A DNA stretch of 61,373 nucleotides from Candidatus Poseidoniaceae archaeon (GCA_045568475.1 JBJLAY010000040.1:1-61373); one strand, 5' to 3'; shown: positions 10,475-56,274, counted from the stretch's first letter. Notes: generated by a model not told the origin, from the letters alone. A program made the numbers and translations.

Positions 10475-11482
10475 ATGTGGCTGTGGTATGACTGGAGATC
10501 TGCAGCAGTTTCGGACTCCAATGGGAATATCCTAGATGTTGAGACATGGGACGGTTGGAAGGATACTGATGCTGTCTGTTCACGGCTTGATATGATCGCT
10601 CATGAAGCATTAACTCCAGAAGCGGAAAGATTGTCCGAAAGATTTCCTGACGCAAAGATTCTACTTCACGGTGACGAAGAACTTCCAGATGCTGATTGGC
10701 CAATCCCGTCACAGGAGGCTTTGGAATGCCTAGACCGTGCTGCGATTTTACTTTCTAAGCGCGGAGTGGATGCTGCTGCTGGTGACCCAGACCGTCGCCT
10801 AGAACATATTCTGAAAGCATCCGATGAGTTACGTGCATCTTTCGTTACAATTGAAGGAAGACTAGTCGAATGGGTGGGCCTTTTCCTTCCTGAAGCAAGA
10901 TTCGAGAGAGATAGAAGTGGATTAGCAAGAAAAGTAATTGATTCTTCAAGCTTAGAAGATTTAGCAGTTACACTCGACATTGGAATGCCACCAGTAGGGC
11001 CAACTGATGCAGAATGGGCCAGTCTTCATGACTGGGCTACTAGCGTCTGGGAAATCAAAAACCGTCTAGAAAAGATGGAGGATGTAGTAAGAGAACTTGC
11101 TTCACAGCACCTGCCTTCACTATCCGCACTCCTTGGTCCAATCTTGGCTGCAAGACTCTGTGTTGAAGCGCATGGTCGTGCTCGCCTAGCAAGACTTCCT
11201 GCGGGAACTATGCAAATTCTAGGTGCTGAAAAAGCGTTTTTCAATCACCTGAAAACTGGAGCACCATCGCCTAAACATGGACACATTTTCATGCACCCAT
11301 GGATATCACGTTCACCACGTTGGGTAAGAGGTAAAATCGCTAGAACTGTTGCAGCTAAAGCGACGATTGCAGTACGATGTGACGCTTACGGTGGTAAATT
11401 ATGGAGCCAAGAATCACTAGATGCAGTAGCAGATAGAGTGGAAACTATTCGCAGCGAAAACTCAACTCCTCCTCAAAGGTGA
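10475..11482 (+). CDS. nop5: Nop5 (Nop56/58) C/D box sRNP core protein
   Basis: Nop-domain signature GAEKAFFNHLKTGAPSPKHGHIFMHPWI. It overlaps the fibrillarin start by 4 nt, the classic archaeal nop5-flpA operon arrangement. Confidence 0.85.
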   Translation: MWLWYDWRSAAVSDSNGNILDVETWDGWKDTDAVCSRLDMIAHEALTPEAERLSERFPDAKILLHGDEELPDADWPIPSQEALECLDRAAILLSKRGVDAAAGDPDRRLEHILKASDELRASFVTIEGRLVEWVGLFLPEARFERDRSGLARKVIDSSSLEDLAVTLDIGMPPVGPTDAEWASLHDWATSVWEIKNRLEKMEDVVRELASQHLPSLSALLGPILAARLCVEAHGRARLARLPAGTMQILGAEKAFFNHLKTGAPSPKHGHIFMHPWISRSPRWVRGKIARTVAAKATIAVRCDAYGGKLWSQESLDAVADRVETIRSENSTPPQR

Positions 11483-12183
11483 TTATGATGGGCAAAAAGC
11501 GTCGCCTATCATGGGCCGTCATGATTGATGGCAGATCCATTTGGACACGTAATGCTGTACTCAAACACTCACAATACGGAGAGTCACTTCGCAGATTCAA
11601 GGGTACTGAATACCGAAGGTGGGACCCTACAAGATCAAAGTTAGGGGCTGCATTATCCAGAGCGAGACGAACACAATACGATTTACTACCAGAGGAAGGT
11701 GACACCTGCCTATACCTAGGAGCAGGTCATGGAACCTCTCTTTCTCATCTCCATGACCAAGTTTGTGGGGCTGACAATCAAAAGGGTGGGAGGATTATCG
11801 CTGTCGATCTATCTCCTCGCTGTTTGAGAGATTTGGTGCACTTGTCCAAAATACGACCAGGGTTGGTACCGGTACTAGGTGATGCAAGGAAGCATTCCGC
11901 TTGGGGAGTTATGGTTGCAACTAAGGTCGATTGGTTGTTACAGGATGTTAGTCAAGCCGGACAAGCAGAGATATTCATCAATTCAGTGAATAGATTCTTG
12001 AAACCTGGTGGCAAGGGCTTACTATCCCTGAAGGCAGCATCTGAAAGATTTACAGATACCGATGAAAGAGAAGTATTCAATCAAATCAGAGAACAGTTAG
12101 AAGATGCAGGATTAACCGTTCAAGAACAAATTGACCTACACGGTCTAGAAGACAATCATTGTCTGTACTATGTTACCAATTAA
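11479..12183 (+). CDS. flpA: Fibrillarin-like rRNA/tRNA 2'-O-methyltransferase
   Basis: EYRRWDPTRSKLGAAL and the SAM-binding YLGAGHGTSLSHLHD. 234 aa, directly coupled to nop5. Confidence 0.9.
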   Translation: MIMMGKKRRLSWAVMIDGRSIWTRNAVLKHSQYGESLRRFKGTEYRRWDPTRSKLGAALSRARRTQYDLLPEEGDTCLYLGAGHGTSLSHLHDQVCGADNQKGGRIIAVDLSPRCLRDLVHLSKIRPGLVPVLGDARKHSAWGVMVATKVDWLLQDVSQAGQAEIFINSVNRFLKPGGKGLLSLKAASERFTDTDEREVFNQIREQLEDAGLTVQEQIDLHGLEDNHCLYYVTN

Positions 12184-12188
12184 GGTAA

Positions 12189-12944
12189 TCACATATCTTC
12201 GACTCTAGGTGCAAGGAAGTACTCTACGTGCCCTGCTCCATCTTCAAAGTCGAAGGTTAATTTTAGTGGGAAATTCTCACCGAATCTTAGGTTGACATTT
12301 TCAATTCCTTGGAATACCTTAGCCATTGGAGTCAGGTATGTCAGAGAATATTGTGAACGTGCTGCTTCTTTGCAATCTATTGCTAACAATTCATCCTTGG
12401 AGAATTCAACATTTACTTCATCAGTTGATCCTTTTACGTTAACAGCAAAACTGGAATCTGTTAGAGAGAAGTGTACCAAGTCTCCTGCCATTTTTGCAGC
12501 TCTAAGGGCCTGAGCAAGTTCAGAACCTGCAATAGTTACTCCACAAGGAAGTTCCAAGGATGGAACGTTTGGAGGATTAAGAGTAGTATTGTCAAGAGGC
12601 CTCACATTCAAATCGATTCGGCCGATTTTGATAGTAGCTTGTCCTGATTTATCGTTGTATGCAAGTTCGACCATGTCGCCAGCACCAGCAATACCTACAA
12701 TCTCTTTCAATTTCCTCATTTCAAGGCCTAACTTTGTCTCATCAACTTCCCAACCATCGAAGGCCGCACTATCGACCTCCATCTTGATCATGGCTACGTG
12801 TGAAGGATCAACAACCCTTACAGATAATCCATCTTCTCCGAAGTCTAGTCTTGCCTCCTCAACGACGACCCCAAGTGTATCTACTATGGTTCGCATGAGT
12901 TCTTGACGGGCTGTGACGTTCAACATGAGAGCACCCCTATACAT
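12189..12944 (-). CDS. pcn: DNA polymerase sliding clamp (PCNA)
   Basis: About 245-251 aa with a two-domain pattern typical of archaeal PCNA (...VDEARLDF..DGLSVRVVDPSHVAMIKMEV... and a matching second half). The start may be the internal Met at 12926. Confidence 0.8.
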   Translation of the reverse strand: MYRGALMLNVTARQELMRTIVDTLGVVVEEARLDFGEDGLSVRVVDPSHVAMIKMEVDSAAFDGWEVDETKLGLEMRKLKEIVGIAGAGDMVELAYNDKSGQATIKIGRIDLNVRPLDNTTLNPPNVPSLELPCGVTIAGSELAQALRAAKMAGDLVHFSLTDSSFAVNVKGSTDEVNVEFSKDELLAIDCKEAARSQYSLTYLTPMAKVFQGIENVNLRFGENFPLKLTFDFEDGAGHVEYFLAPRVEDM

Positions 12945-23501: not shown

Positions 23502-24191
23502 TCAAACATTATTTCTGGTTGTTTTACATCCAACCGAAAAGTTGGGATTATCTTTCATTGCTTCTAAAGTAGCATCTAAGAGGTCATCTTCGGCAGACCT
23601 TGGATTATCTCCGGCCTGCCTCCATGCAACTGAAACCATTAATTCATCATGGATGAAAGACACTACCTGATGTTCTCCTATTGAGATATCTCTAGGATTC
23701 AGATGCATGCCTTTTTTCTCTGCTTTTTGTACTGCTTCTTTGGCAGTCCAGATTCTAATCGCTTGATCTGAATTAGATTTCAACCAATCTAATTCTTCAC
23801 CTTTAGCCATCATGTCAAATGCATTTTCTTGAATGCCTCTATCGCTAGGCTCACCATCAATTCCAACCCAATATCCTGGCTCAATTAATGCACAAACCGC
23901 CCATTCCCCAGAATGCCCGATACTGATATCTGGCAGAGGTTCATTTTTCCAAACACCATCTAGCCACGATAGATATGGAGCCCTCTCTTCAGTTCGTAAC
24001 ACTTCGATTGAATCGATAGGAATATTCCATGTTTTGAGACATTCCTCCAATAGTAGGCGTCCAGAATTATGGTCTGCTATTCGCTTATCTGTTGCACGAG
24101 GAATCTCTTCGGCTAGAGTGCTCGAACACTCTTCTATTCTCTTACGCGCAATTAGCATGCGTGGACCCTTTGGAGGATCCATAATTTCCAC
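23502..24191 (-). CDS. Sfp/PfaE-type 4'-phosphopantetheinyl transferase
   Basis: PPTase core motifs WVGIDGEP (G-I-D-x-E) and IWTAKEAVQKAEKKG (W-x-x-KEA-x-x-K). It starts 4 nt after the megasynthase stop (GTG 24191, or ATG 24182 preceded by AGGTGG). Confidence 0.8.
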   Translation of the reverse strand: MEIMDPPKGPRMLIARKRIEECSSTLAEEIPRATDKRIADHNSGRLLLEECLKTWNIPIDSIEVLRTEERAPYLSWLDGVWKNEPLPDISIGHSGEWAVCALIEPGYWVGIDGEPSDRGIQENAFDMMAKGEELDWLKSNSDQAIRIWTAKEAVQKAEKKGMHLNPRDISIGEHQVVSFIHDELMVSVAWRQAGDNPRSAEDDLLDATLEAMKDNPNFSVGCKTTRNNV

Positions 24192-24195
24192 CTAA

Positions 24196-27100
24196 TCACC
24201 TCTCAAGAGTGAATCTTTGATCCTCTGCTACTTCGCCCATGGCCTTGAGGCGTAATCCCTTGAGAGAGATTACTGGGGCATCATCATCGCCGACTATTAC
24301 TACATCATGTACAGTTACTCCTGCATCTTCTGTAGCTTGTTTGATTGAACGAACACGTAATTTCTCATCTGCTTCAGGAACTCGTAGCATTGTAGACCAC
24401 TCGATTCCAATAGGTAGGCTAGAGAATCCTTCACTTTCCATTGCAGCCAGTCCGGCATTTTGGAATCCTGCCTCAATCAGCATAGGTAATGCATCAAGGA
24501 GGACTTCTTCTCCTTCTGATTCCAAAGCGAATTGGTCTGTTGCTGGTAATTGATGACGCATCAGGGCGATTCCATCTACACCATTCTCAACTCCTCGCAA
24601 TACTCCTCCATGGGATTGGAACCTAGGGCCGTGGAAGTATCTTAGATAGATGAAACTTGAATGATGCATTAATTCGCCATCTGCAGGTGTACCAATTGCT
24701 GGTAGTGCTTCGATTTCAGATTGCAAGAAAGTGCTCAAGTCATCGCTTGAGGCAACTAGTCTAACCTTTGCTTGATGATGCAATCTTGGCTCACCGAATA
24801 TTTCTCCCTTCGAGTTTACCAAATCTGAAACTAATCGGCAATTCACCCACGATAAATCTCCATTGGTCTTTTCCAAATTTGCTTCAACTCTAACCGTCAT
24901 CGCACCTTTCATTATCTTGACAGGAAGGCCGAATGAAACTTCTTCGAAACCAGCAATACAGTGTCCGGGCATCAACAGCAATGAGTTCTCAGCAAACATT
25001 TCCATAGCCATTACACCGGGATGATAAGGCACTCCATCGATTGCATGGTCAACCAAGAATGGGTGGTCTTGAACCGAAAGAGTACATTGAGAGACCAATG
25101 ATTTGCCTTCATCTAGTGATACTAACTTGTCGATTAATGGGAATCTGCGAGGATCTGCAATTGATGCTGCCATTTCTGCGGGAAGTTTTAGTGGGGCTTC
25201 TCTAAAGGAATCGTATCTATCCATCAGACCTAATGAGCCACATCCAAGAACTCTTCTTTTGCCACCAGCAAGCGCTTCTCCAACGAATATCTCAACTCCG
25301 TCTTCAACAGATAATGTTTCAATTCCAGCAGACTCGAAGACTGCTTCGATAGAACCTCTTGTAGCCATTCCAACATCTCGCCATCCTGTCCATCCAATAG
25401 CTACTGCTCTGCAATCTCCTGTTGCAGTCAGTCTGGCCATCTCTGCGTCTAGGATTGAATTGGCTGCTGCGTAATCGGTTTGACCACCGTTTCCAAATCT
25501 TCCAGCAACGCTGGTAAAGGCACAGGCGAATCTCAAAGAATCGCCTGCTACTGAATAGAGAGACTTCCAACCATCGACCTTGACTCGAACTATCAAATCG
25601 AATGTGCTCCATTCTTTGTCAGCGACTAATTTGGACTCTTCAAGTCCAGCACCATGAACGATACCAGTCACGCTTCTTCCGTTGACTGCGGCGCTAATAC
25701 TAGTTGAATCGGTTACATTTGCCGAATGATATTCTGCTTGATTACCACCGTTTTCAATCTCCTTAATTGTACGATAAATATCCATGCTGCGAGTTAGTTT
25801 AGTCCAGGCATTATTCCATTCAACCATCGTTACTTTGCCGGTCTCAGATTCTGCGATTAGGGATTCTCTAAGTTCCATCTTTCGAGTATTGAGTTGCTCA
25901 TCACTCCAATCTAACCACGATGCAGTCTCTTCAGCGAGTTTGCTTCTGCCCAGCAACAAGAATGTTGCACCTGCATCTTTGCTTGCATTTGAAACACCGA
26001 TAATGGATGCTGCAGTTACGCCTGATCCTCCACCACTTACCAACCAAATATCATCTGATTGTAGTGGTTTGATGTCATCAACTAGATCTTCTGCAAAACA
26101 GACCATTGTCCATCTTCGTCCGTCTCTGTCAATTCCAATTTCAACATCGCCACCTGAATTAAACATGTCATTATCGATAATCTCAGCTGCTGCTGCTGCA
26201 TCGATTATCAATTCAGGATGCAAATCCAAGGCTCGACATCTGAGGTTTTCACGTTCAAAACCATAGGACTTGGTTACGCCACTTGCCCCGCAGGCTAGCG
26301 CATTGAATCTGTCACCACGGTTACCATGCCTTCCGTCAATGGCTGTCACACTACCAACAATTCCTGCTGAAATAACACCTAATTGAGAATCTAATCCCTT
26401 GAGTAATCCAAACCATGATTGTGCAGCAAGTGCAACTTGGTTCGAAGGCCCTTCAGATTCCCAAGTGCTTCCAGTTAGGGACAAAGGTGCCAGGTGGATT
26501 ATTCCCCCAACTCCATCAATTCTTGAGCATACTTCTGCAATTTGTTCTTCGCTATTTGGATTTGCTCTGAAAGTATGTCCAGATAATTCCTCTTGCTCAG
26601 TGACTGACTTCGCACCGAATTCGAATCCAATTTTAGCAACTGAAAGTCCCTTTTCGGTTAGCCTGGTTGCTAGAGCATCAGCAACTCCCCAACTATCCTG
26701 TGTAATGACAATGGTTCCGCCAATTGGGAGCCCTTCTGCCACAGCAGGACAGGGTTCTACCTCAACTTGCCATCTTCTGGTGGATGTTTTTGCAGGACTT
26801 GAAGCCGGAGCGACCGGATCCGCAATAGGGGTTGCAACCGCTTGAACAGGTGCAGAAACAGGTTCTGCTGTGACGGTAGTGGATGCACTTCCACCTTTCA
26901 TTTTCTGAATGTATGCTACAAAGTGATTCAATGTTGGATGGTCGGATAGAACGAAGTCCTCATCGACAGGTAGAGAGAAGATTTCTCTAACGTCACCCAT
27001 TATTTCGGCTTGCTTTACTGTATCAATTCCAAGTTCACCTTCTAGGTCTTGATCCATTTCAATAAAGTCATCAGGATAACCTGTGTGCTTTACTACGACT

Positions 27101-30100
27101 CCAATCAATTTTGGTTGAATGTCTCCGCCATCCCCTGATTGGCTAGGTGGTGGGGCGACTGGTGCTGCCTCCACCTGAACTGGAACTGGTTCCACAGGAA
27201 TAGACTCCACTTCTACAGGAACAGATACTACGCCACCCGTCATTTTCTGAATGTATGCTACAAAGTGATTCAATGTTGGATGGTCGGATAGAACGAAGTC
27301 CTCATCGACAGGTAGAGAGAAGATTTCTCTAACGTCCCCCATTATTTCGGCTTGCTTTACGGTATCAATTCCAAGTTCGCCTTCTAGGTCTTGATCCATC
27401 TCAATGAAATCTTCAGGATAACCTGTATGTTTGACTACAACACCGATTAATTTCGGCTGTATATCGCTTACATCTGCTGAATGTGATGATGTCTGAGTCA
27501 CGACTTCAGCAGGAGGTTCTACTACGGCTTCGATTGCTGGCTGAACAGCAGGTGTTGGCGCAGGGGTTGCTGCAGGAGCGGAAACATCCCCTCCTTTCAT
27601 TTTGTGAATATATGCAATCATGTGGTTGAGTGTTGGATAATCGGACAGGATGAAGTCTTCATCGACTGGTAATTCGAACAATGTCCTGATATCAGCCATA
27701 ATCTCTGCTTGCTTGACCGTATCGATTCCCAATTCTCCTTCTAAATCTTGGTCTAATTCTACGAAGTCTGCTGGATATCCTGTGTGGTTTACTACTACTT
27801 CAATTACAGCAGGAGTAATGTCACCGACTACAGCGACTGCAGCGACTGCGGCAGGTTTCACAACTACTGGTTCTGCGACAGGTTCTGGTTCTGCAGCCGG
27901 CTTGGGCACAGTTTCTGCAACAACTGGAACTACAGGAGGTGCTGTGGCTTTGGCTACAGCGTACTCTTCTCCTTGAATACCGCCATGTAGATTGTTGTCG
28001 CCATCAACATAGGCAACTAACTTATTTTGTAGAACTCTAAGTTCGACATTTGATGTACCTGCAATAGATTGGTTCCAAGTTAGCAACTTCTGTCTATCGA
28101 TTCTGTCACCAATATAATCGTACTTTCGAACTAATGAAAGTCCGATTTGGCTACCAAATCCTGCTGCAAATCTCATTCCATATTTCAGATTGGAATAATT
28201 TCCACCTTTAGATAAAGTCAGGTTTCCAAGTTCTGGATCTACTTCCTTATGGTTTGCAATAGGAGGAATCCTTCCCGTCATTAATCCATAGAACATCGAT
28301 GCATCTTCGATTCCAACACCCATTGGATGTCCCGTGAAACCTTTGGTATTGGCAATAACAATTGAATCTGTACTTGCACCAAAGGTATCTCTCAAGGCCT
28401 TGACTTCGGCTTGGGCAGAACCGCCTCTTGCAGGAGTAAATGTTTCGTGAGAGAAGAATGCCATATCGGGAGCCATTGTATGTCGATCCAATCCCCATCT
28501 TTCTTCCATTTCTCTGATGAAGGTATCAACGGTTGAAGCAACGTGTTCAACATCTAATCTTGTTCCATGGAAAGCGGAGTTTGCAATCTTAGTTCCAAGA
28601 AGTTCAGCCATCGGTTGAACGCCTCTTTCATCAGCCTGAGATTTTCTCTCGACAACGAATGCTGCAGCTCCCATTCCCAGAATTAGTCCGTTCCTGCGAC
28701 GATCGAATGGCAGTGCTGTTTCTTCGACAACATTGCTTGTAGCTGCTGCGCCGCTTGCTGCGAAACCAGAACCAATCCATTCCCACAAATCGTCACCAGT
28801 AACATCGTCTGCAGATATAATCACCACGCGGTCACAACGGTCAGCAGCAAGCCAATCTTCAGCGACACCGAATGCTGATGTGGCTGAAGCACAAGCCAGA
28901 TTGATAGTAGTATTAGGGCCTCTGATTCCGACATGTTGTGCGAATTGTGAATGACCCATATTCAAAATCTGGAACAGATATCGACGGTCAAATCTTCCTT
29001 CCCCGTCGTCTCCGTTAACCTTAGCGTGGCGAGCAGCCATTTGATGCCCTGCGAAACATGATGCGAAAACAATACCTGTTCTATCTCTGTAAGAAGATGG
29101 CATCTGCCATGAACGAATAAGTCGTAGTCCACCTTTTCCTACCTGTTCAACAGGGCTTAGCGGAATACCTGCGTCTTTGAGAGCGATTAATCCTGCTGCA
29201 CATGCTAGTTGAGTTGCGATATCCCATGCGGCTGCGATTTTAGCATCGATTCCAAACTCTTCTGATGGATCAAATGCGGACTTAATTCCTGCTAGTTGAG
29301 GTATGTCTCCGAATTCAGTAGCAGCCTCCATCCCTACACTGCCGTCTCTTCCTTTGATTAGTCGAACTATGTTCTTGTCAAGCAATCTCTGCTTGTAGTC
29401 ATCAGTAACTTCACTGATACAGGTTTCTCCTCTGACTAACTTCTCGAAATTGCCTTCATCGAATACACGCTCGCCACCAGGCAATCCAAGAGAAATACCA
29501 GTGATTACGAATGGATCATCATCCCTATCGTCAAATTTGGTTGAACGGTTTTTACTTCCGATTGAAGGGGCTGCTGTTATCCATCTTGTGATATCAGCAG
29601 GTGTTTTTGCAACTGTAATATCCCAATCAGGGTCTGTACTGCATCTTGCATGTACGGATGAAACTACTACTTGGATTTGAGAATCATCCATACCAAGAAC
29701 AGCCCTCATGTCGACATTTCCTTGACAGAATTTAGCAGGATAACCGGATTGTACTGCGATTAATTCTCCAACTAATGCAATCTTAGCCGCATCTGGATCT
29801 ACATATTTTTGACTAGATTGAACTACAGTCTTTGTGACTGTCTCTCCTCCCTTAGATGGTAAAGGTCTACTTCTGTCTTTGAGAGGAGTTGTAGGTGCTA
29901 CTACTCCATTATCTGCTTCGATTGGGCCTGCTTTGAACGCCTCTGTAAGATGAGGACTATTACGTCCTGGCCAATCAGGAATACGACCTGCAAGGGCGAG
30001 GGTTCCAAGGGCTGAGAGGAACGTTGAGATTCCTCCGGCCTTTGGATGATTTGTCATAATCGGCAGGGCTGCCTTTCCTTCTAGGATTTGTGAGGCGAAT

Positions 30101-32847
30101 ACTGTTAGAGCCCTCTTAGGCCCAACTTCGACGAATATCCTTGCGCCTGCTTCATACATCGTATTGATTTGAGTTGTCCACTCAACACTAGATGCCATTT
30201 GAGGGGCTAGCTTTGACAACACTGCTGATTTAGAATCACTGCCATCATCCATTGGATACCAGCCACCATCGACATTGCTTGTTATTGGAATAGTAGGCCA
30301 ACGGATATCCAATCCTTCGAGGAACCTGCGTAGCGGCTCGTTAGCGGGAGCCACTATTCTGGAATGGAATGCATGACTAGTTGCTAATGCCACAGACTGG
30401 AATCCTTCTGCCTCAAACCTTGACATCGCTTCCTTGACGGGCGCTGTTTCGCCAGCGATGACTGTCATCTTTGGAGAGTTCTTGTTTGCTGCAATTACAT
30501 ATCCATCAATCTCATCTATGATTTCTGCAATTCTCTCATAAGGAGCGGTTACACTTGCCATCAGTCCTTTATCTTCGATTTCAACACTGCCCATTTCGGT
30601 ACCACGGGCTGCTGCTGCTCTAAGTGCTCCATCCATGTCAAGAATACCGGCACTCATCAAAGCAGCGTATTCTCCAAGACTGTGTCCAGCGACCATGTCA
30701 GGGTTATGCCCATGAGAATTCAAGGCTGCTTCTATTGCTAAATCGGATGTAAGCATTGCAGGCTGAGTATATTCGGTCTGCTTGAGTTTGTACTCTGCTT
30801 CTTTTCTTTCTTCAGCAGATAGGTTTTCTCGAAGTACGAACGATGAGAGAGTCTCTCCTTCCAAAACATCTACCATTGTGACATCTGCTTTTTCCCACAC
30901 CTTTCCTACACCAGAATAACGGTTACTCAAGTCCAAGGTCATACCAACATATTGGCTTCCTTGTCCGGGATACATATGAGCGACTTTAGCATTAGTTGGA
31001 AGAGCAGGGTCGTCACTGATCATGACTCCTTGACTCATCAAGAATCCCCATTTTTCTTTATCATCCATTGCCTTTACAGCCAAATCGGTTCGCTTACTCA
31101 ATTCAGCCCAACTTGTAGCAGTAATAGCCATCCTAACCGAGTCACTTTCTGAATATGACCAGTGGTCCTGGAGAGTAAAGGATAGCCTCATCCCCCTGGG
31201 GTCATCATCGAAGTTTGGACCACTAAACGCTATTGAACTCAATTTAGACTTCACTGTAGCGATAGAATCTCCCGAAAGTAATAGCAATCCTCCTTCAACA
31301 GATTTCAATTCATCATGAGTCATTGTAGGCTTTGAATCTGAGACTTCTATGCCAGCATATGCTTCCCATCTGCCGTCCCAATGTGAAACCAATTCAGAAT
31401 GGTACTGCTGTTTGTATTCTTCAATTGCTACGTGGAAGTTCGTTCCACCAAAACCGAAGGCAGAGACTCCTGCTCGACGAGGATGTGACTCCGGTTCTGG
31501 CCAATCTCTCGCTTCGGTTGGAACGAAGAACGGAATCTCACCCCATTCCACAGTAGGGTTTGGAGTTTGGAAACCTGCACTTGGAGGGATTGTGTTGTGG
31601 TATACAGAATTACATGCTTTCATGATTCCAGCAATACCTGCAGCCGCTTTCAGATGCCCAATTTGGCTTTTTACTGAACCTACTGCGATGTGATCGCCAC
31701 CATCAAGTCCTTTCCAAAGTAAAGAAAGAGTAGACAACTCAGTAGCATCTCCTACCTTGGTTGATGTACCGTGTGCTTCAACTAACTCTACAGTTGAAGG
31801 AGCATATCCTGCTTGCGAATAAGCACGGCTAACCGCTTGGACTTGTCCTCTTTGACTTGGAGCTGTAATTCCTTTACCTCTCCCATCTGATGAACCTCCG
31901 ACTCCACGAACTACCGCTTTGACATCATCTCCATCACGAATTGCATCTGAAAGTCTCTTGAGTAGCAATACCCCTGCGCCTTCACCCATTACGAATCCGT
32001 TTGCACGTGCATCGAAAGGCGTTGAGTGAGTTGCAGAAAGGGCGCCTATTGCACTGAATTTAGCGAAGGTTGGAGCTTCCATGCAACGGTCTGTAGCACC
32101 AGCCAACATGGTATCGACTTGTCTTGTCTGTAGTAATCTGCAAGCATCCAGTAATGCCGCCATTGAGGATGCGCATGCTGCATCTGTCGAATAATTTGGA
32201 CCTTGAAGGTCAAGTAAATTCGCAACTCGGCCACTCACTACATTCGCAAGCTCACCCGGCATTGTATCTTCATCGATTCTTGGTTTACCTTCACAGACTT
32301 TCTCAACCATGGCATCTGCCTGTTCTGGAGTTGCTCCATTATCAATTGCAATCTTGCGCATCTCTGCACTGAATACTCGTAAATTGGATTCAGAGCGGTT
32401 TTCTCCTCCAAGAGCGTTAGCAAAAATTACTCCTGTTCTTGCACGATCAAGTGTTTTACCGTCTTCACCATACCCTGCATTCTCAATTGCGTCAGCAGAT
32501 ACCGTAACTGCCCAAAGTTGGCATGGATCGATTTGAGGTAGCGTCCCGGGAGGTTGCCTCCACCTTCTCCAATCAAATTCGTAACCTTCAACAAATCCAC
32601 CGATTTTAGAATATGTTTTACCTTCTGTGACATTCCCTGGTGCGCCATTTTCCCAGTAAATATCAGGGTCCCATCTGCTTTTGTCAACCTCTTTTATCGA
32701 AACATGAGCGTCGATAATGTTCTGCCAGAATTCATCGATGCTTTTTGCATCCGGCATTAGAGCGGCCATGCCGATAATTGCAATCGGTTCAAATGGCGCC
32801 TGATTTAGGCCGTCGACCGGTTTTCCATTGGCAGTGGTGATTGTCAT
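24196..32847 (-). CDS. Type I FAS/PKS megasynthase, PfaA-like: KS - AT - carrier-like - KS - ACP x3 - KR - DH (2883 aa)
   Basis: KS1 (aa ~20-475): DAACASS, EAHGTST, KSQIGH. AT (aa ~620-920): GHSLGEY, AFHS. Degenerate carrier-like segment (aa ~1015-1090). KS2 (aa ~1110-1575): NLACASA, AFHGT, GFTGH. ACPs (aa ~1675-1986): 3x GYP.DF...DQDLEGELGIDTVKQAEIM. KR (aa ~2030-2500): SGGGSGV, DYAAAN. DH (aa ~2565-2870): HAIDGVPYHP. Approximate nt ranges: KS1 31423-32790, AT 30088-30990, KS2 28123-29520, ACPs 26890-27825, KR 25348-26760, DH 24238-25155. Confidence 0.9.
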   Translation of the reverse strand: MTITTANGKPVDGLNQAPFEPIAIIGMAALMPDAKSIDEFWQNIIDAHVSIKEVDKSRWDPDIYWENGAPGNVTEGKTYSKIGGFVEGYEFDWRRWRQPPGTLPQIDPCQLWAVTVSADAIENAGYGEDGKTLDRARTGVIFANALGGENRSESNLRVFSAEMRKIAIDNGATPEQADAMVEKVCEGKPRIDEDTMPGELANVVSGRVANLLDLQGPNYSTDAACASSMAALLDACRLLQTRQVDTMLAGATDRCMEAPTFAKFSAIGALSATHSTPFDARANGFVMGEGAGVLLLKRLSDAIRDGDDVKAVVRGVGGSSDGRGKGITAPSQRGQVQAVSRAYSQAGYAPSTVELVEAHGTSTKVGDATELSTLSLLWKGLDGGDHIAVGSVKSQIGHLKAAAGIAGIMKACNSVYHNTIPPSAGFQTPNPTVEWGEIPFFVPTEARDWPEPESHPRRAGVSAFGFGGTNFHVAIEEYKQQYHSELVSHWDGRWEAYAGIEVSDSKPTMTHDELKSVEGGLLLLSGDSIATVKSKLSSIAFSGPNFDDDPRGMRLSFTLQDHWSYSESDSVRMAITATSWAELSKRTDLAVKAMDDKEKWGFLMSQGVMISDDPALPTNAKVAHMYPGQGSQYVGMTLDLSNRYSGVGKVWEKADVTMVDVLEGETLSSFVLRENLSAEERKEAEYKLKQTEYTQPAMLTSDLAIEAALNSHGHNPDMVAGHSLGEYAALMSAGILDMDGALRAAAARGTEMGSVEIEDKGLMASVTAPYERIAEIIDEIDGYVIAANKNSPKMTVIAGETAPVKEAMSRFEAEGFQSVALATSHAFHSRIVAPANEPLRRFLEGLDIRWPTIPITSNVDGGWYPMDDGSDSKSAVLSKLAPQMASSVEWTTQINTMYEAGARIFVEVGPKRALTVFASQILEGKAALPIMTNHPKAGGISTFLSALGTLALAGRIPDWPGRNSPHLTEAFKAGPIEADNGVVAPTTPLKDRSRPLPSKGGETVTKTVVQSSQKYVDPDAAKIALVGELIAVQSGYPAKFCQGNVDMRAVLGMDDSQIQVVVSSVHARCSTDPDWDITVAKTPADITRWITAAPSIGSKNRSTKFDDRDDDPFVITGISLGLPGGERVFDEGNFEKLVRGETCISEVTDDYKQRLLDKNIVRLIKGRDGSVGMEAATEFGDIPQLAGIKSAFDPSEEFGIDAKIAAAWDIATQLACAAGLIALKDAGIPLSPVEQVGKGGLRLIRSWQMPSSYRDRTGIVFASCFAGHQMAARHAKVNGDDGEGRFDRRYLFQILNMGHSQFAQHVGIRGPNTTINLACASATSAFGVAEDWLAADRCDRVVIISADDVTGDDLWEWIGSGFAASGAAATSNVVEETALPFDRRRNGLILGMGAAAFVVERKSQADERGVQPMAELLGTKIANSAFHGTRLDVEHVASTVDTFIREMEERWGLDRHTMAPDMAFFSHETFTPARGGSAQAEVKALRDTFGASTDSIVIANTKGFTGHPMGVGIEDASMFYGLMTGRIPPIANHKEVDPELGNLTLSKGGNYSNLKYGMRFAAGFGSQIGLSLVRKYDYIGDRIDRQKLLTWNQSIAGTSNVELRVLQNKLVAYVDGDNNLHGGIQGEEYAVAKATAPPVVPVVAETVPKPAAEPEPVAEPVVVKPAAVAAVAVVGDITPAVIEVVVNHTGYPADFVELDQDLEGELGIDTVKQAEIMADIRTLFELPVDEDFILSDYPTLNHMIAYIHKMKGGDVSAPAATPAPTPAVQPAIEAVVEPPAEVVTQTSSHSADVSDIQPKLIGVVVKHTGYPEDFIEMDQDLEGELGIDTVKQAEIMGDVREIFSLPVDEDFVLSDHPTLNHFVAYIQKMTGGVVSVPVEVESIPVEPVPVQVEAAPVAPPPSQSGDGGDIQPKLIGVVVKHTGYPDDFIEMDQDLEGELGIDTVKQAEIMGDVREIFSLPVDEDFVLSDHPTLNHFVAYIQKMKGGSASTTVTAEPVSAPVQAVATPIADPVAPASSPAKTSTRRWQVEVEPCPAVAEGLPIGGTIVITQDSWGVADALATRLTEKGLSVAKIGFEFGAKSVTEQEELSGHTFRANPNSEEQIAEVCSRIDGVGGIIHLAPLSLTGSTWESEGPSNQVALAAQSWFGLLKGLDSQLGVISAGIVGSVTAIDGRHGNRGDRFNALACGASGVTKSYGFERENLRCRALDLHPELIIDAAAAAEIIDNDMFNSGGDVEIGIDRDGRRWTMVCFAEDLVDDIKPLQSDDIWLVSGGGSGVTAASIIGVSNASKDAGATFLLLGRSKLAEETASWLDWSDEQLNTRKMELRESLIAESETGKVTMVEWNNAWTKLTRSMDIYRTIKEIENGGNQAEYHSANVTDSTSISAAVNGRSVTGIVHGAGLEESKLVADKEWSTFDLIVRVKVDGWKSLYSVAGDSLRFACAFTSVAGRFGNGGQTDYAAANSILDAEMARLTATGDCRAVAIGWTGWRDVGMATRGSIEAVFESAGIETLSVEDGVEIFVGEALAGGKRRVLGCGSLGLMDRYDSFREAPLKLPAEMAASIADPRRFPLIDKLVSLDEGKSLVSQCTLSVQDHPFLVDHAIDGVPYHPGVMAMEMFAENSLLLMPGHCIAGFEEVSFGLPVKIMKGAMTVRVEANLEKTNGDLSWVNCRLVSDLVNSKGEIFGEPRLHHQAKVRLVASSDDLSTFLQSEIEALPAIGTPADGELMHHSSFIYLRYFHGPRFQSHGGVLRGVENGVDGIALMRHQLPATDQFALESEGEEVLLDALPMLIEAGFQNAGLAAMESEGFSSLPIGIEWSTMLRVPEADEKLRVRSIKQATEDAGVTVHDVVIVGDDDAPVISLKGLRLKAMGEVAEDQRFTLER
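26890..27825 (-). repeat. Three in-frame tandem ACP-domain repeats (periods 357 and 342 nt) separated by Ala/Pro/Val-rich linkers
   Basis: Copies 2 and 3 share a 96-nt perfectly identical block (26899-26994 = 27241-27336), then diverge progressively. Copy 1 is clearly more diverged. Confidence 0.9.
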
Positions 32848-32851
32848 TTCT

Positions 32852-33646
32852 TCACTCCCCCATTATACTCGAAGGAACCATTGTAATCGAATATCCTGCA
32901 TCAACATGGATACACTGTCCTGTAACGCCTGATGAAAGTGGGCTTGCAAGCCAAGTTGTACAGCCTGCAACATCTGACTGTGTTACGTTTCTGCGAAGAG
33001 GTGAATTGTTTGCAACATGATCTAGAATATTGTCAAAGCCGGGGATGCCGCTGGCTGCAATAGTACGAATCGGTCCACTAGAAATCGCATTAACGCGGTG
33101 CCCTTCAGGCCCAAGATGGCAAGCTAATTCTCTAGTCCAGCACTCGAGTGCGGCCTTTGCCATACTCATTATTCCATAGGAAGGGACATGCCTGGTAGAT
33201 GCCGCATAAGTCAGAGTTATTGTTGAAGAGTCCGCATTGAGATATGGCAATGCATATTTCAGACAACGCTGTAATGAATTGGCAGAAATTGTGAATGCAG
33301 TATTGATACTCTCATCTTCAACGAATAAAATAGGTCTGTCGAAACACTCACGTGGGGCGAACCCGATTGCGTGAATTAGAATATCTGCTTTCAGACCAGG
33401 ATTCTCTTTACCGAATGCGTCAAAGAATTCCTTGGTATCTGCATCGGTAGCAACATCTAGCGGGTAGAATCCAGCAATGGCTGGAAGTTTATCCTTTAAT
33501 TGGAATACTCTAGACATGAATCTCTTCTGATATCCGAGGTAAAGTGTCACCCCTGCTTCAGCTAGACTCTTGCAAATCGCCCATGCGATTGAGTCTTCAC
33601 TTGCAACACCGAATACGAATGCAACTTTACCTTGTAAACCAAGCAT
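32852..33646 (-). CDS. fabI: Enoyl-[acyl-carrier-protein] reductase, FabI type (SDR)
   Basis: N-terminus MLGLQGKVAFVFGVASEDSIAWAI (FabI G-x-x-x-x-x-SIA motif) and the Tyr/Lys region YGIMSMAKAALE. The start is taken at ATG 33646; the track GTG at 33655 lies inside a hairpin. The stop lies 4 nt before the megasynthase ATG. Confidence 0.85.
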   Translation of the reverse strand: MLGLQGKVAFVFGVASEDSIAWAICKSLAEAGVTLYLGYQKRFMSRVFQLKDKLPAIAGFYPLDVATDADTKEFFDAFGKENPGLKADILIHAIGFAPRECFDRPILFVEDESINTAFTISANSLQRCLKYALPYLNADSSTITLTYAASTRHVPSYGIMSMAKAALECWTRELACHLGPEGHRVNAISSGPIRTIAASGIPGFDNILDHVANNSPLRRNVTQSDVAGCTTWLASPLSSGVTGQCIHVDAGYSITMVPSSIMGE

Positions 33647-33652
33647 GATTGG

Positions 33653-33673
33653 CACCTACCCTTAGGGTAGGTG
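33653..33673 (-). promoter_or_regulatory. Perfect 9-bp stem / 3-nt loop hairpin covering the Shine-Dalgarno-like AGGUG of fabI
   Basis: Plus strand reads cacctaccc-tta-gggtaggtg. On the mRNA it is CACCUACCC-UAA-GGGUAGGUG-CCAAUC-AUG, so the SD-like element forms the 3' arm of the stem, 6 nt from the AUG. Confidence 0.45.
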
Positions 33674-37148: not shown

Positions 37149-40100
37149 TCACTGATTTTCGTTGACCCAGTCTCGTAGTGTAGCAATATCCCACCCTTGG
37201 TCAAAGTATCCCTGGATGGTTGCTTGATCCCATTGAGGGAATTCGGCGAGAGCCGCAGCCATAGTTGGATCTACACTCGGTGCCGCAGCAGGTGGACCAG
37301 AAGTTGGAGGGCCTGCTACTGGAATCTCAGCATAGGTCTTATCTTCTTCTTCAAATTCATATTCATACTCGTAAGTTCCATCGCCAGAATCACGTTTTGC
37401 TAGTATTACTACAGCAACTAACAGAATCAGAATTAATGCACCTAGACCTACAACAATAAGCATTCCAGAACCTGACAAGAAACCTTCATCAGCAGACTGT
37501 TCTGCTACATTGAAAGACTTAGATTCTTTAGAACCGTTCCACAATATATCATTGGACTCAGCGTCTACAATCAAGAAATACATACCACTTGTTGGGCTAG
37601 CAAATATCTCGAGTTCATCAACGTCTATTTCTGACATTGTACCTTGCTCGATGTCTTCAGTTGTCCATGTATATTCTGTAGTAGGGAATCCTCCTTCTTT
37701 CACAGACTGTATCTCTAGAGTAATATTGCCATCCTTGGTACCGATGTTCTGTAACAAAATTTCCAATGAAGGAGTCTGTCCTACTTCTGGATTCTTTGGA
37801 GTCATTGCTACAGCGATTACCTCGAACTTTGCTTCCTCGTATACCAATCGGTATTGAGAATTATGAACTGGATCATCAGAATAAATTGAGCTTATTCCTC
37901 CAGCACTATTTGGGCCACCTCCATCAATTGACCAACCAGCAGAATCACGACCCTCAATCCACATTACTAGATCAATCGAATTGATTTGTGCCTGTGTTGG
38001 GTCTTGTGGGTCTGGCCACAAATCAACACAATCTGCACTGACCAAGTAATCGCCACCTTGGATCTTCAAATCCATAGGGGTAGACTGAGGCTCTGCACCG
38101 CCGAAGCGCTGACCGTAAACTGGCCATGTTAGATTTGAGTCTGCATCTGTGTAGAAAGACCACAGCAAGTTTACTTCTCCAGCAAGTAGAGCCGCATTCT
38201 CTTCTATCTTTGCTTGAACATCAACACAATGCATAGTAGATGAAGGCATGGTACTGCCTAATACATCCTGGTTTATTCCAGATTTTGCAGACCATGAATC
38301 ATCATCCATTTCTGGTTGAATACCGTCTACCTTTATCTTGAAAGTACTACAACCGAATGCATTGTTTCCATCACAAATTGAAGATGTAGTATCAGTTGCA
38401 CCATCTGGTAAGTCTACCAGGCGGAATGTGTAAGTGTACTCATTTGTAACTGGAGGGGCTGTGATGTTGATACTGAACGCTCCTCCGTCAATAGTATGCA
38501 AAGTTGGCCCATCTGTCTTGGCACCATCAGCGCCGCCTGCAGGGTATGGGAAGTATCCTTTACTTCCATCCATTGTAGCTTCAAGTCTGGTAACCTCAAG
38601 GGTAAACTCTCCTTCTGGTAACACGTAAACACCATTGTTAATTCCATCAACATAAGCGTATTTACCTTCCATTGTAATAGTATCAAGAGGGAATACGAAT
38701 GCAACTTCTACATTTTGTGAGAACGGCTCAGATACATCTGTAAATGTAGGACTGATTCCATTCCTGTAATCTAACTGGATTCCATCGCTGTAGACCCAGC
38801 GTTGCTTGTGCCTACCGCCAGATTCACTCATCAAAGATGGATCTCTATCCATATCCTTAATCCTCAACTGAGGAACATATGTGGTAGATTCAATTCCGAT
38901 AATATCCCAATTCATTCTAATTGGTAAATCCAAATAGAATTCATCTTCGAATGCATCTACTAAGCGTCCGCCATCCATTCGTAGAACTTCTGGACCTTCG
39001 CTCTCATTACTCGCTGTAACGATTTCGATATCCGTGGAGTCTGTCCAAGCAGTCTCGTTACGAGGTGAATAGTACACAACCATATCCTCAGGCCCTAGAT
39101 CGATTTCGAAGTAATTGATATCTCTCCAACCATTTTCATCGGTTGCCTCTACTATCAAGTGGTATTCATTACCAGCGTACATGGTCATATTCCATGGTCC
39201 TTGATAGAACGGAGCACCTTCGTTAGGATTGTGTAACCTTTCACCATCTGAATTTTCAATGAAGAAGTTTCTGATGTTTGGAGTCTTTGCATCCATTGAA
39301 ACATAAGTCACCAAGTCATCATTGAAACCAGGTAACCCACCTTCTATCTTGTTTCCACCAAGGTCTGCACCTTCAATGTAGATACTTACCTTACCGGGAG
39401 GGTCTTGCCCCTTATTGGCATCATCGCTAAATATTCCAGAGTAATTTGCAGTAGGTGCATTTCCATCACTTGTTAAAACTAAGGATGCATATTCATCAGG
39501 GTCTGCAATTCCGTCCATGTCAGTGTCATGGTCATACTCAACCCAGTAGAACATGTCTAAAGTGCTAGGAGGAGCAGGAATATCTTGAGCCAGAACTCTG
39601 ACCTTCTGTTGGGAATTAGGTAGAACCCAGGTGTCATCTACAAGTCCTCTCCAGTTGGACCAAATTGTAGGATCATAGTTAGAGGATTTTAGAACAGAGA
39701 TATTTACCAAACTCGGAGAGAATGTATCGATTGATAGGTTGAAAGGAATTGCACAGTCCTCATCAGATACAATAGGAGTTGGAGGGCATAGCGTATCTCC
39801 ACCCTCATATCCATCAAGCATGAATCTGTAAGTTGCCTGCCCTGCAGCAGTAAATCCAAGGTTTACTTCCCAGTTGAAGTTACCACCAATTATTCCTGTA
39901 GAATTAGAGACTTCTACCCATTCTGAAACAACAGAACCGTTGATTGATTGGACATCCCAGCGTTGTAGTGAGAGGTTGTACGAGGTTGGGTCAGGTGAAA
40001 TATCTAAACCTTCGAGACGGATAGTTCCGACCAGTTCAATATTCTGATTTGAACTTGCAGATGTTAAATTCTGCACAACTCCAGCATCATTTAGAAGTTG

Positions 40101-42968: not shown

Positions 42969-43032
42969 GGGGCTACCCTCTCTCCTCTTCCAGTCCAGTC
43001 TGACATAAAAGACCGACGGGGAAGTGTCTGAG

Positions 43033-43060
43033 CGGGTTCCCCCCTTTAGGGGGGTACCCG
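43033..43060 (-). terminator. GC-clamp hairpin (C6-loop-G6 core) just downstream of the ThiI-like gene
   Basis: Reads cgggttcccccc-ttta-ggggggtacccg: 11 bp with one T-T mismatch. It lies 7 nt past the stop at 43067. No oligo-T follows, so terminator function is only a guess. Confidence 0.3.
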
Positions 43061-43066
43061 GTAATC

Positions 43067-56232: not shown

Positions 56233-56274
56233 ACTATCGACTGTGTTTGGATGGCTATTCAATGAATCGCAAAG

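What the first reader, a model, noticed from the sequence alone, without database searches (positions are those of the whole stretch)
27019..27720. All three tandem ACP domains have Thr instead of the canonical pantetheinylated Ser, each encoded by a different Thr codon
SEEN: the carrier motif is ...DQDLEGELGIDTVKQAEIM... in all three copies. Aligned to E. coli ACP (..DLGADSLDTVELV..) or PfaA ACPs (LGIDSIKRVEIL), the D-S position is D-T here. The Thr codons are ACG (27718-27720), ACC (27361-27363) and ACA (27019-27021). The codon has therefore drifted synonymously while the amino acid was kept, which argues for selection for Thr rather than a sequencing error or a recent inactivating mutation. 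ESTABLISHED: 4'-phosphopantetheine is attached to this invariant Ser in ACP/PCP domains. As far as I recall, Ser-to-Thr ACP variants are poor or non-substrates for standard PPTases. INFERENCE: there are three possibilities. The adjacent PPTase may have co-evolved to modify Thr. These domains may be non-pantetheinylated scaffolds. Or loading may occur elsewhere (see the DDS carrier-like segment).
Basis: partly seen in the sequence, partly recalled or inferred. Interest (0 to 1): 0.85.

Follow-up and report, generated by a model that had tools for sequence, protein, structure and literature searches.

The report
Carrier domains with threonine attachment site
All three acyl-carrier domains of a giant lipid or polyketide synthase in this marine archaeon have threonine where every studied carrier has the cofactor-bearing serine; this is the rule in a large, unnoticed enzyme family that always carries its own cofactor-attaching enzyme, so threonine is probably a working attachment site.

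Summary
The 2883-aa ORF at 24196-32847 (-) reads KS-AT-(pseudo-ACP)-KS2-ACPx3-KR-DH. All three ACPs read LGIDTVKQAEIM, with Thr codons ACG, ACC and ACA at the stated coordinates. Alignment to solved ACPs and an AlphaFold model (pLDDT 94) put the Thr at the first residue of helix II, the canonical phosphopantetheine serine position.

This is not an error or a recent lesion. The window is archaeal (Poseidoniales), and Thr is a family trait. In 81 related loci from Poseidoniales, other archaea and at least 7 bacterial phyla, 243 of 247 sites are Thr, using all four codons. An exhaustive HMMER search found 1519 proteins at E<=1e-30. Every domain scoring 90 bits or more is Thr.

One Poseidoniales sublineage nested among Thr types has Ser, and mixed Thr/Ser arrays exist. 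Thr covaries with +1 Val and +3 Gln; Ser covaries with Ile and Arg/Lys. A catalytically intact Sfp-type PPTase follows the synthase, or is fused to it, in 72 of 82 loci. The "DDS" segment is a degenerate pseudo-ACP with no conserved hydroxyl.

Best reading (about 0.65, inferred, not shown): Thr is phosphopantetheinylated by the dedicated PPTase. No report of this was found. Mass spectrometry would decide.

The parts
32852..33655 (-). FabI-type enoyl reductase (SDR). Its coding end lies 4 nt upstream of the synthase start codon. Probably the trans-acting ER of the system.
   Evidence: Pfam adh_short_C2, 2.4e-67. It keeps the same position in Poseidoniales orthologous loci, at 74-97% identity.
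24196..32847 (-). 2883-aa type I synthase: KS1-AT-pseudoACP-KS2-ACP(Thr)x3-KR-DH.
   Evidence: It scores 920 bits on TIGR02813 PfaA, below the 1010 cutoff.
31408..32790 (-). KS1 (aa 20-480), with DAACASS Cys, EAHGTST His and SQIGHLK His.
   Evidence: Pfam ketoacyl-synt 8.8e-73 and Ketoacyl-synt_C 2.7e-36; motifs read.
30001..30975 (-). Acyltransferase (aa 625-949), with the GHSLGE motif.
   Evidence: Pfam Acyl_transf_1 3.5e-34; motif read.
29653..29772 (-). It is not an attachment site.
   Evidence: It scores 10.3 bits on the family HMM, over helix I to the start of helix II only. Asp aligns to the Thr column. DDS is not conserved in orthologues.
28108..29460 (-). Second KS-like domain (aa about 1130-1580). 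It retains a Cys (NLACASATS).
   Evidence: Weak Pfam hits. It is conserved at 41-92% identity, in the same position, in the related loci that hold this part of the synthase.
27589..27810 (-). ACP1 (aa 1680-1753). Thr1710 codon is ACG at 27718-27720.
   Evidence: 124.6 bits on the family HMM; codon read.
27232..27456 (-). ACP2 (aa 1798-1872). Thr1829 codon is ACC at 27361-27363.
   Evidence: 121.6 bits. AlphaFold model has pLDDT 94 with Thr at the helix II N-terminus.
26887..27114 (-). ACP3 (aa 1912-1987). Thr1943 codon is ACA at 27019-27021.
   Evidence: 120.8 bits; codon read.
25375..25776 (-). Ketoreductase core (aa 2358-2491).
   Evidence: Pfam KR 3.7e-20.
24223..25140 (-). PKS-type dehydratase (aa 2570-2875), with HxxxGxxxxP present (HAIDGVPYHP).
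   Evidence: Pfam PKS_DH_N and PS-DH; motif read.
23502..24191 (-). Sfp-type 4'-phosphopantetheinyl transferase, 229 aa. It starts 4 nt after the synthase stop codon.
   Evidence: Pfam ACPS 5.1e-10. It aligns to Sfp 1qr0/4mrt, with IGHSGEW, VGIDGE and WTAKEAVQK matching Sfp H90, D107/E109 and E151/K155. Orthologues hold the same position in the Poseidoniales loci that extend this far.

Best explanation
The three domains are working acyl carrier domains whose 4'-phosphopantetheine arm is attached to the Thr hydroxyl at the N-terminus of helix II instead of to Ser. The arm is installed from CoA by the Sfp-type PPTase encoded 4 nt downstream. That PPTase belongs to a lineage that travels with this synthase type, and is sometimes fused to it. 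The holo-ACPs then serve KS1/KS2, AT, KR and DH in cis and the FabI-type enoyl reductase in trans, as an iterative fatty-acyl or polyketide synthase. Shown: the Thr position, its conservation, the Ser/Thr interchange, the covariation, the linkage to an intact PPTase, and intact catalytic motifs. Inferred: that Thr is actually modified, and by this PPTase. More speculative: why Thr is preferred. It could insulate this carrier/PPTase pair from other PPTases or from ACP phosphodiesterases. It could also give a phosphodiester less prone to beta-elimination than phospho-Ser.
For: (1) Register. Thr aligns to the attachment Ser of solved ACPs and is the first residue of helix II in a pLDDT-94 model that superposes on holo-ACPs.
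(2) Selection. The genome scan matched more than 600 stretches, of which 79 loci were kept. Those 79 plus two bacterial context loci (L001, L002) span Poseidoniales, other Thermoplasmata, Myxococcota, Spirochaetota, Acidobacteriota, Actinomycetota (including cultured Amycolatopsis sp. NPDC021455), Chloroflexota, Elusimicrobiota and Gemmatimonadota. Across them the site is Thr in 243 of 247 domains: ACG 117, ACC 82, ACT 25, ACA 19.
(3) No search bias. An exhaustive HMMER search of 1.84 billion representatives gave 7483 hits at E<=1e-3 and 1519 at E<=1e-30. Among the best 150 proteins, all 301 domains scoring 90 bits or more are Thr.
(4) Functional equivalence of Ser and Thr. Two Poseidoniales genomes (L034, L039) have Ser (TCN) in both ACPs with the same gene order. 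In a KS2 tree they nest inside a Thr-type subclade. Single arrays mix the two residues: P0146 and P0182 are TTTTS, and P0243 is STT.
(5) Covariation on helix II. Thr with +1 Val occurs 667 times and Ser with +1 Ile 219 times; Ser-Val occurs only 9 times and Thr-Ile only 4. Thr with +3 Gln occurs 669 times, against Ser with +3 Arg/Lys 210 times.
(6) Dedicated PPTase. A homologue lies directly after KR-DH in 72 of 82 sources, and most of those without one are contigs that end before that position. It is fused to the synthase C-terminus in L045, L061, L070, L075 and L081, where every ACP found in the locus is Thr. In 69 of these PPTases G105, D107 and E109 are invariant, and H90, W147, K150, E151 and K155 are present in 65-68.
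(7) KS, AT, KR and DH motifs are intact, and the domain order is the same in every locus long enough to show it.
(8) ACP and ACP synthase are reported absent from nearly all archaea (bioRxiv 10.1101/2024.07.05.601840), so this PPTase has no other obvious substrate in a Poseidoniales cell.
Against: There is no biochemical evidence that any PPTase transfers phosphopantetheine to Thr. The only experimental precedent I could read is negative: E. coli ACP S36T is not modified and is non-functional (PMC3340395). I could not identify PPTase residues that would make room for the Thr methyl group; the differences from Sfp, such as K112 to Glu/Asp in 53 of 69, cannot be interpreted without a complex structure. 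The covariation and codon counts are not phylogenetically independent. Only 61 kb of this genome was available, so another carrier or PPTase elsewhere cannot be excluded.
Confidence: 0.65

Rival explanations
1. The Thr carrier domains are never pantetheinylated. They act as structural or scaffolding pseudo-ACPs, and the synthase works on CoA-bound or otherwise carried substrates, as in the ACP-independent archaeal fatty acid pathway.
For: Ser-to-Thr abolishes modification in E. coli ACP. Archaea have an ACP-independent route that uses CoA thioesters. The same protein does contain one clearly degenerate pseudo-ACP.
Against: The true pseudo-ACP shows what decay looks like: 10 bits and a variable site. 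The three ACPs score 121-125 bits and keep an invariant hydroxyl residue. Ser appears at the same site in nested orthologues and in mixed arrays. A scaffold would not need a catalytically intact PPTase that is adjacent or fused in 72 of 82 loci. Most hosts are bacteria, not archaea.
Confidence: 0.1
2. The Thr is modified, but with something other than a standard 4'-phosphopantetheine arm. It could carry a different CoA-derived prosthetic group, as in the CitD/MdcC carriers, or be directly O-acylated. Alternatively the linked PPTase-like enzyme has a changed donor specificity.
For: The strict conservation of a hydroxyl residue and of the linked transferase shows only that something is attached. 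The PPTase is very divergent from Sfp (19 bits), and the recognition helix is altered. From my own knowledge, other ACP-fold carriers use 2'-(5''-phosphoribosyl)-3'-dephospho-CoA.
Against: The residues that bind Mg2+ and CoA and act as catalytic base in Sfp are all kept. KS, AT, KR and DH are ordinary thioester-handling domains. Direct O-acylation would give no swinging arm.
Confidence: 0.12
3. Phosphopantetheine is attached at another residue, either the 'DDS' segment after the AT or another Ser/Thr within the ACPs.
For: The segment at aa 1026-1065 resembles the first half of an ACP and contains a Ser. Archaeal ACPs carry a Ser in ...VLSDHPTL....
Against: In the DDS segment, Asp aligns to the site, the Ser is at +1, and neither is conserved in orthologues (SDA, DDM, SED, TAQ and others). 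The LSD Ser is Arg or Ala in most family members. The nearly invariant Thr residues of TGYP and PTL are too far from the helix II N-terminus in the model to replace it; the TGYP motif also occurs in the Ser-type relatives.
Confidence: 0.03
4. The Thr codons are an assembly or sequencing artefact, or a recent inactivating mutation in a decaying gene.
For: None beyond prior expectation.
Against: There are three different Thr codons in one gene. The same residue occurs in 243 of 247 sites from independent assemblies in at least 8 phyla. The 8.6-kb ORF is intact, and synonymous differences dominate between repeats.
Confidence: 0.01

Closest known systems
Tandem ACP domains of PfaA in bacterial PUFA synthases (motif LGIDSIKRVEIL)
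   Same: Both are tandem arrays of closely similar ACPs with a TGYP...LGID-x-[IV]K core, set in a KS-AT-ACPn-KR-DH polypeptide. They are the next-best hits of the family profile, at 52-69 bits per domain. PfaA is the best NCBIfam model for the whole protein.
   Different: The attachment residue is Ser there and Thr here. The +1 residue is Ile vs Val, and the +3 residue is Arg/Lys vs Gln. This synthase has an extra KS between AT and the ACPs. It uses a FabI-type rather than a PfaD-type reductase, and no PfaB or PfaC partner is seen in the window. It scores below the PfaA cutoff (920 vs 1010 bits).
Uncharacterised 'secondary lipid synthase' cluster types of Shulse & Allen 2011 (PMC3098273), e.g. 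types L, M and R
   Same: The host taxa overlap (Acidobacteria, Elusimicrobia, Chloroflexi, Actinobacteria, Myxobacteria). The domain inventory is the same: KS, AT, CLF/KS, tandem ACP, KR, DH and PPTase.
   Different: I could not test membership by sequence. The paper does not mention threonine or archaea, and the products are unknown.
E. coli ACP S36T (engineered)
   Same: It has the same substitution at the same structural position.
   Different: S36T is not modified by AcpS and cannot support growth (PMC3340395). Here Thr is the conserved natural state and comes with its own Sfp-type PPTase.
Type I PKSs with an integrated PPTase domain (SACE_2343, SAV_7361) mentioned in PMC6042109
   Same: The PPTase is fused to a type I synthase of unknown product. 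Five Thr-type loci here have that fusion.
   Different: I could not retrieve those sequences, so it is not known whether their ACPs carry Thr.
Sfp (B. subtilis) and PfaE-type PPTases
   Same: The window PPTase keeps Sfp H90, D107, E109, E151 and K155 and the WxxKEAxxK motif.
   Different: Similarity is very low (19 bits). Sfp K112 is Glu/Asp in 53 of 69 members. The PPTase is constantly linked to Thr-type carriers.

Membership tests
Acyl carrier protein / PP-binding domain (PF00550) | Sequence match to the family profile above the curated threshold | tested here: met
   71 bits over three stretches against a cutoff of 20.8.
Acyl carrier protein / PP-binding domain (PF00550) | Small helical-bundle fold with the attachment residue at the N-terminus of helix II | tested here: met
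   AlphaFold model with pLDDT 94, and helix II starting at the Thr. Foldseek TM is about 0.8 to holo-ACPs.
Acyl carrier protein / PP-binding domain (PF00550) | Invariant Ser as the 4'-phosphopantetheine attachment residue | tested here: not met
   Thr in all three domains and in 243 of 247 related domains.
Acyl carrier protein / PP-binding domain (PF00550) | The domain is actually phosphopantetheinylated (holo form exists) | not testable with these tools
   This needs mass spectrometry. It is inferred from the linked, intact PPTase.
PfaA of PUFA synthases (TIGR02813) | Score above the curated cutoff of the PfaA model | tested here: not met
   920.4 bits against a cutoff of 1010.1.
PfaA of PUFA synthases (TIGR02813) | Order KS-AT-tandem ACP-KR-DH, with pfaB, pfaC and pfaD partners | tested here: not met
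   An extra KS lies between AT and the ACPs. The neighbour is a FabI-type reductase, and no pfaB/C/D-like genes are in the window.
Sfp-type phosphopantetheinyl transferase | ACPS domain with the Mg/CoA-binding and catalytic residues (Sfp H90, D107, E109, E151, K155) | tested here: met
   Pfam ACPS 5.1e-10; alignment to 1qr0/4mrt; residues kept in 65-69 of 69 family members.
Sfp-type phosphopantetheinyl transferase | Transfers phosphopantetheine to a carrier Ser | not testable with these tools
   The only carriers in the locus have Thr. Activity is untested.

The most novel reading that the evidence does not exclude
A widespread, previously unrecognised class of carrier proteins uses O-phosphopantetheinyl-threonine, installed by a co-evolved PPTase lineage, forming a carrier/PPTase pair that is orthogonal to ordinary Ser-ACP systems. 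In Poseidoniales, and apparently in other Thermoplasmatota and Heimdallarchaeota, this pair belongs to a self-contained ACP-dependent type I synthase (KS, AT, KR, DH, FabI, PPTase) in a domain of life generally said to lack ACP and ACP synthase.
Probability: 0.6. Interest if true: 0.85.

Novelty: new variant of a known kind. Interest (0 to 1): 0.78.

Why it matters
The serine attachment site is treated as a defining invariant of ACP and PCP domains. It is written into the PROSITE pattern, and Ser-to-Thr is used as a null allele.

A natural family of well over a thousand proteins with Thr at that site, always linked to its own PPTase, would have three consequences if the Thr is modified:

- It would extend phosphopantetheinylation chemistry to a secondary alcohol.
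- It would provide a ready-made orthogonal carrier/PPTase pair for pathway engineering and protein labelling.
- It would flag a blind spot in genome mining, because these proteins are annotated only as 'SDR family oxidoreductase', 'hypothetical protein' or generic 'phosphopantetheine-binding protein'.

It also bears on the archaeal lipid question. Abundant marine Poseidoniales carry what looks like a complete ACP-dependent fatty-acyl synthase of bacterial type. The hypothesis can be tested with one co-expression and one mass spectrum.

Tried and rejected
- The whole-protein homologue search failed internally. I used the ACP tri-domain instead.
- That search is word-indexed and therefore biased towards DTVKQ. 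I controlled for this with the exhaustive HMMER search.
- Ten full-text literature searches were run for threonine pantetheinylation, the motif strings, Ser replaced by Thr, Poseidoniales PKS/ACP, and MGII fatty acid synthase. None found a report of a Thr attachment site. One apparent hit (PMC5116633) was a false match. Shulse & Allen 2011 and a 2026 PUFA-like synthase survey do not mention it. Subscription-only literature was not searchable.
- The 'DDS' alternative site was rejected.
- Sequencing error and recent mutation were rejected.
- I looked for PPTase residues diagnostic of Thr acceptance by aligning 69 cluster PPTases with Sfp. The catalytic residues are conserved, but the differences could not be interpreted without a complex structure.
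- Only two Ser-type orthologues exist in the sample, and they come from one clade, so no Ser-versus-Thr PPTase contrast was possible.
- Ser-type Thermoguttaceae relatives (L082, L084) have a different architecture and no PPTase in the stretch held. This is anecdotal only.
- The product of the synthase and its release mechanism were not determined.


Full report
**What is there.** The finding lies inside one 8.65-kb ORF (24196-32847, minus strand, 2883 aa).
- Pfam and NCBIfam read it as KS (aa 20-480), AT (625-949), a second KS-like domain (about 1130-1580), three PP-binding domains (1680-1987), KR (2358-2491) and a PKS-type DH (2570-2875).
- PfaA (TIGR02813) is the best whole-protein model, but below its cutoff: 920 vs 1010 bits.
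- A FabI-type enoyl reductase (32852-33655) ends 4 nt before the ORF. An Sfp-type PPTase (23502-24191) starts 4 nt after it.
- The rest of the window is archaeal: PCNA, Nop5, fibrillarin and Cdc6. The closest relatives are Poseidoniales (Marine Group II) MAGs, at up to 97% identity over an ACP domain.

**Checking the observation.**
- All three carrier domains read DQDLEGELGIDTVKQAEIM. The Thr codons are ACG (27718-27720), ACC (27361-27363) and ACA (27019-27021).
- phmmer against PDB chains puts this Thr in the column of the pantetheinylated Ser of the PigH ACP doublet (5y08) and of S. coelicolor ACP (2koo/2cnr).
- An AlphaFold2 model of ACP2 built on a 17-sequence family alignment has mean pLDDT 94. 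Its helices are at 2-12, 33-47 and 63-74, so the Thr (domain residue 33) is the first residue of helix II.
- Foldseek against the PDB returns holo-ACPs at TM about 0.8.
- The repeats differ mostly synonymously. ACP1/ACP2 have 33 synonymous and 20 non-synonymous codon differences; ACP2/ACP3 have 16 and 4.

**Thr is a family trait, not a local oddity.**
- A search with the tri-ACP region returned 120 proteins. Every Poseidoniales/Thermoplasmatota hit has LEGELGIDTVKQAEIM. A second large group of bacterial tandem-ACP proteins has LEADLG[IV]DTVKQAE-x-F.
- That search uses a word index and could favour DTVKQ. I therefore ran an exhaustive HMMER profile search of 1.84 billion representative proteins. 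It found 7483 proteins at E<=1e-3 and 1519 at E<=1e-30.
- Among the best 150 proteins of that search, 404 domains have Thr and 205 have Ser. All 301 domains scoring 90 bits or more have Thr. The Ser domains are the lower-scoring classical PfaA type (DSIKRVEIL) and a planctomycete type (DSIKKAQLF).
- The 79 loci kept come from Poseidoniaceae, Thalassarchaeaceae, other Thermoplasmata, Myxococcota, Bradymonadia, Spirochaetota (including Leptospiraceae), Acidobacteriota, Actinomycetota (including cultured Amycolatopsis sp. NPDC021455), Chloroflexota, Elusimicrobiota and Gemmatimonadota.
- Across these loci plus two context loci, the site is Thr in 243 of 247 domains: ACG 117, ACC 82, ACT 25, ACA 19.
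- Cluster look-ups add Heimdallarchaeota and Polyangiaceae. They also show that public annotation is only generic.

**Evidence that the Thr does the job of the Ser.**
- First, Ser and Thr interchange. Two Poseidoniales genomes (L034, L039) carry Ser (TCA, TCT, TCG) in both ACPs, in an otherwise identical FabI-KS-AT-KS2-ACP-KR-DH-PPTase operon. In a neighbour-joining tree of the KS2 domain they nest inside a Thr-type subclade. This implies a Thr-to-Ser change by one first-position transversion.
- Some arrays mix the two residues: P0146 and P0182 are TTTTS, and P0243 is STT.
- Second, the residue covaries with its neighbours on the recognition helix. Thr with +1 Val occurs 667 times and Ser with +1 Ile 219 times, against only 9 Ser-Val and 4 Thr-Ile. 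Thr with +3 Gln occurs 669 times, against Ser with +3 Arg/Lys 210 times. These counts are not corrected for phylogeny.
- Third, the synthase is otherwise intact: KS Cys-His-His, AT GHSxG and DH HxxxGxxxxP are all present. The domain order is the same, fused or split, in every locus long enough to show it.

**The PPTase.**
- An HMM iterated over all ORFs of the loci finds a PPTase homologue directly after KR-DH in 72 of 82 sources. Most of those without one are contigs that end before that position.
- In five loci (L045, L061, L070, L075, L081) the PPTase is fused to the C-terminus of the megasynthase, and every ACP found there is Thr.
- Aligned with Sfp, 69 of these PPTases keep G105, D107 and E109 without exception. 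H90, W147, K150, E151 and K155 are kept in 65-68.
- The window enzyme aligns to Sfp 1qr0/4mrt through IGHSGEW, VGIDGE and WTAKEAVQK.
- A conserved, catalytically competent transferase whose only nearby carriers, often in the same polypeptide, have Thr is hard to explain unless it acts on them.
- In archaea the argument is sharper, because ACP and ACP synthase are reported absent from nearly all archaea (bioRxiv 10.1101/2024.07.05.601840).
- Two Ser-type planctomycete relatives have a different architecture and no PPTase in the 10 kb held. This is only anecdotal.

- The 'DDS' segment (aa 1026-1065, window 29653-29772) is the first half of a decayed ACP. It scores 10 bits on the family HMM, Asp aligns to the site, and the Ser is one residue later.
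- In orthologues DDS reads SDS, SDA, NES, DDM, SED, SSQ, TAQ or TDA, so no hydroxyl residue is conserved. It is not an attachment site.
- No other Ser in the ACPs is conserved. The Ser of ...LSDHPTL... is Arg or Ala elsewhere in the family.
- The scaffold hypothesis leaves the catalytic domains without a carrier and the PPTase without a substrate.
- A different prosthetic group cannot be excluded by sequence.

**What is known.**
- E. coli ACP S36T cannot be modified and does not support growth (PMC3340395). A Thr at this position is therefore normally regarded as dead.
- Ten full-text searches found no report of a natural Thr attachment site or of threonine phosphopantetheinylation.
- The survey of secondary lipid synthases lists clusters in the same taxa (types L, M, R) but mentions neither threonine nor archaea (PMC3098273).
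- Type I PKSs with an integrated PPTase and unknown products are mentioned in PMC6042109. I could not check their ACPs.
- Literature behind paywalls was not searchable, so prior knowledge cannot be ruled out.

**Verdict.**
- The most likely mechanism is phosphopantetheinylation of Thr by a co-evolved, cluster-encoded PPTase (confidence about 0.65). This is inferred from comparative genomics and is not demonstrated.
- I class the finding as a new variant of a known kind: an ACP/PPTase system with a changed attachment residue.
- It rates high interest for two reasons. It contradicts a textbook invariant across a large family. It is also decidable by one co-expression and one mass spectrum.

Noticed in passing
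window 1-61373 (PCNA 12189-12944 -, Nop5 10475-11482 +, fibrillarin 11479-12183 +, Cdc6 52373-53614 +): The window is archaeal (Poseidoniales / Marine Group II). Yet it carries what looks like a complete bacterial-type, ACP-dependent synthase operon (FabI, KS-AT-KS-ACP3-KR-DH, PPTase). Archaea are generally said to lack ACP and ACP synthase. The KS2 tree makes the Poseidoniales copies one clade, separate from the bacterial ones, which suggests a single acquisition.
   Followed up: partly
window 29653-29772 (-): A degenerate half-ACP sits between AT and KS2 (SGYPAKF...LGMDDSQIQ). Its position is conserved in Poseidoniales orthologues, but the attachment-site column is variable.
   Followed up: yes
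window 28108-29460 (-): The second KS-like domain sits where a chain-length factor might be expected, but keeps a Cys (NLACASATS) and His residues. It may be a second active ketosynthase. Pfam barely recognises it.
   Followed up: no
L045, L061, L070, L075, L081: In these loci (a Bradymonadia MAG, three Thermoplasmata-type archaeal MAGs and one unclassified bacterial MAG) the PPTase is fused to the C-terminus of the megasynthase, in ORFs of 1667-3872 aa.
   Followed up: partly
P0146 (Heimdallarchaeota MAG), P0182, P0243: These tandem arrays mix Thr and Ser attachment residues (TTTTS, TTTTS, STT). The family also occurs in Asgard (Heimdallarchaeota) MAGs.
   Followed up: partly
window 55243-56262 (-) and 47876-49216 (-): The first gene is a fused cytidylyltransferase-like + DUF359 protein, probably archaeal phosphopantetheine adenylyltransferase plus dephospho-CoA kinase, which would make the CoA donor of the arm. 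The second is a biotin carboxylase, a possible source of malonyl-CoA. Both lie in the same 61-kb window as the synthase.
   Followed up: no
window 37149-43070 (-): A 1973-aa ORF with no Pfam match at E<=1e-3. It is flanked by a ThiI-like gene and a 267-aa ORF that also has no match.
   Followed up: no
window 524-3859 (-): A single 1111-aa ORF fuses a B12-binding domain, a MeaB GTPase and a methylmalonyl-CoA mutase catalytic domain (an IcmF-like fusion).
   Followed up: no
L001 3047-4681, L002 3513-5186: In bacterial split versions of the cluster, an acyl-CoA dehydrogenase-like gene sits where Poseidoniales and Elusimicrobia (L077, L080) have FabI. The enoyl-reduction partner appears to be exchangeable.
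   Followed up: no
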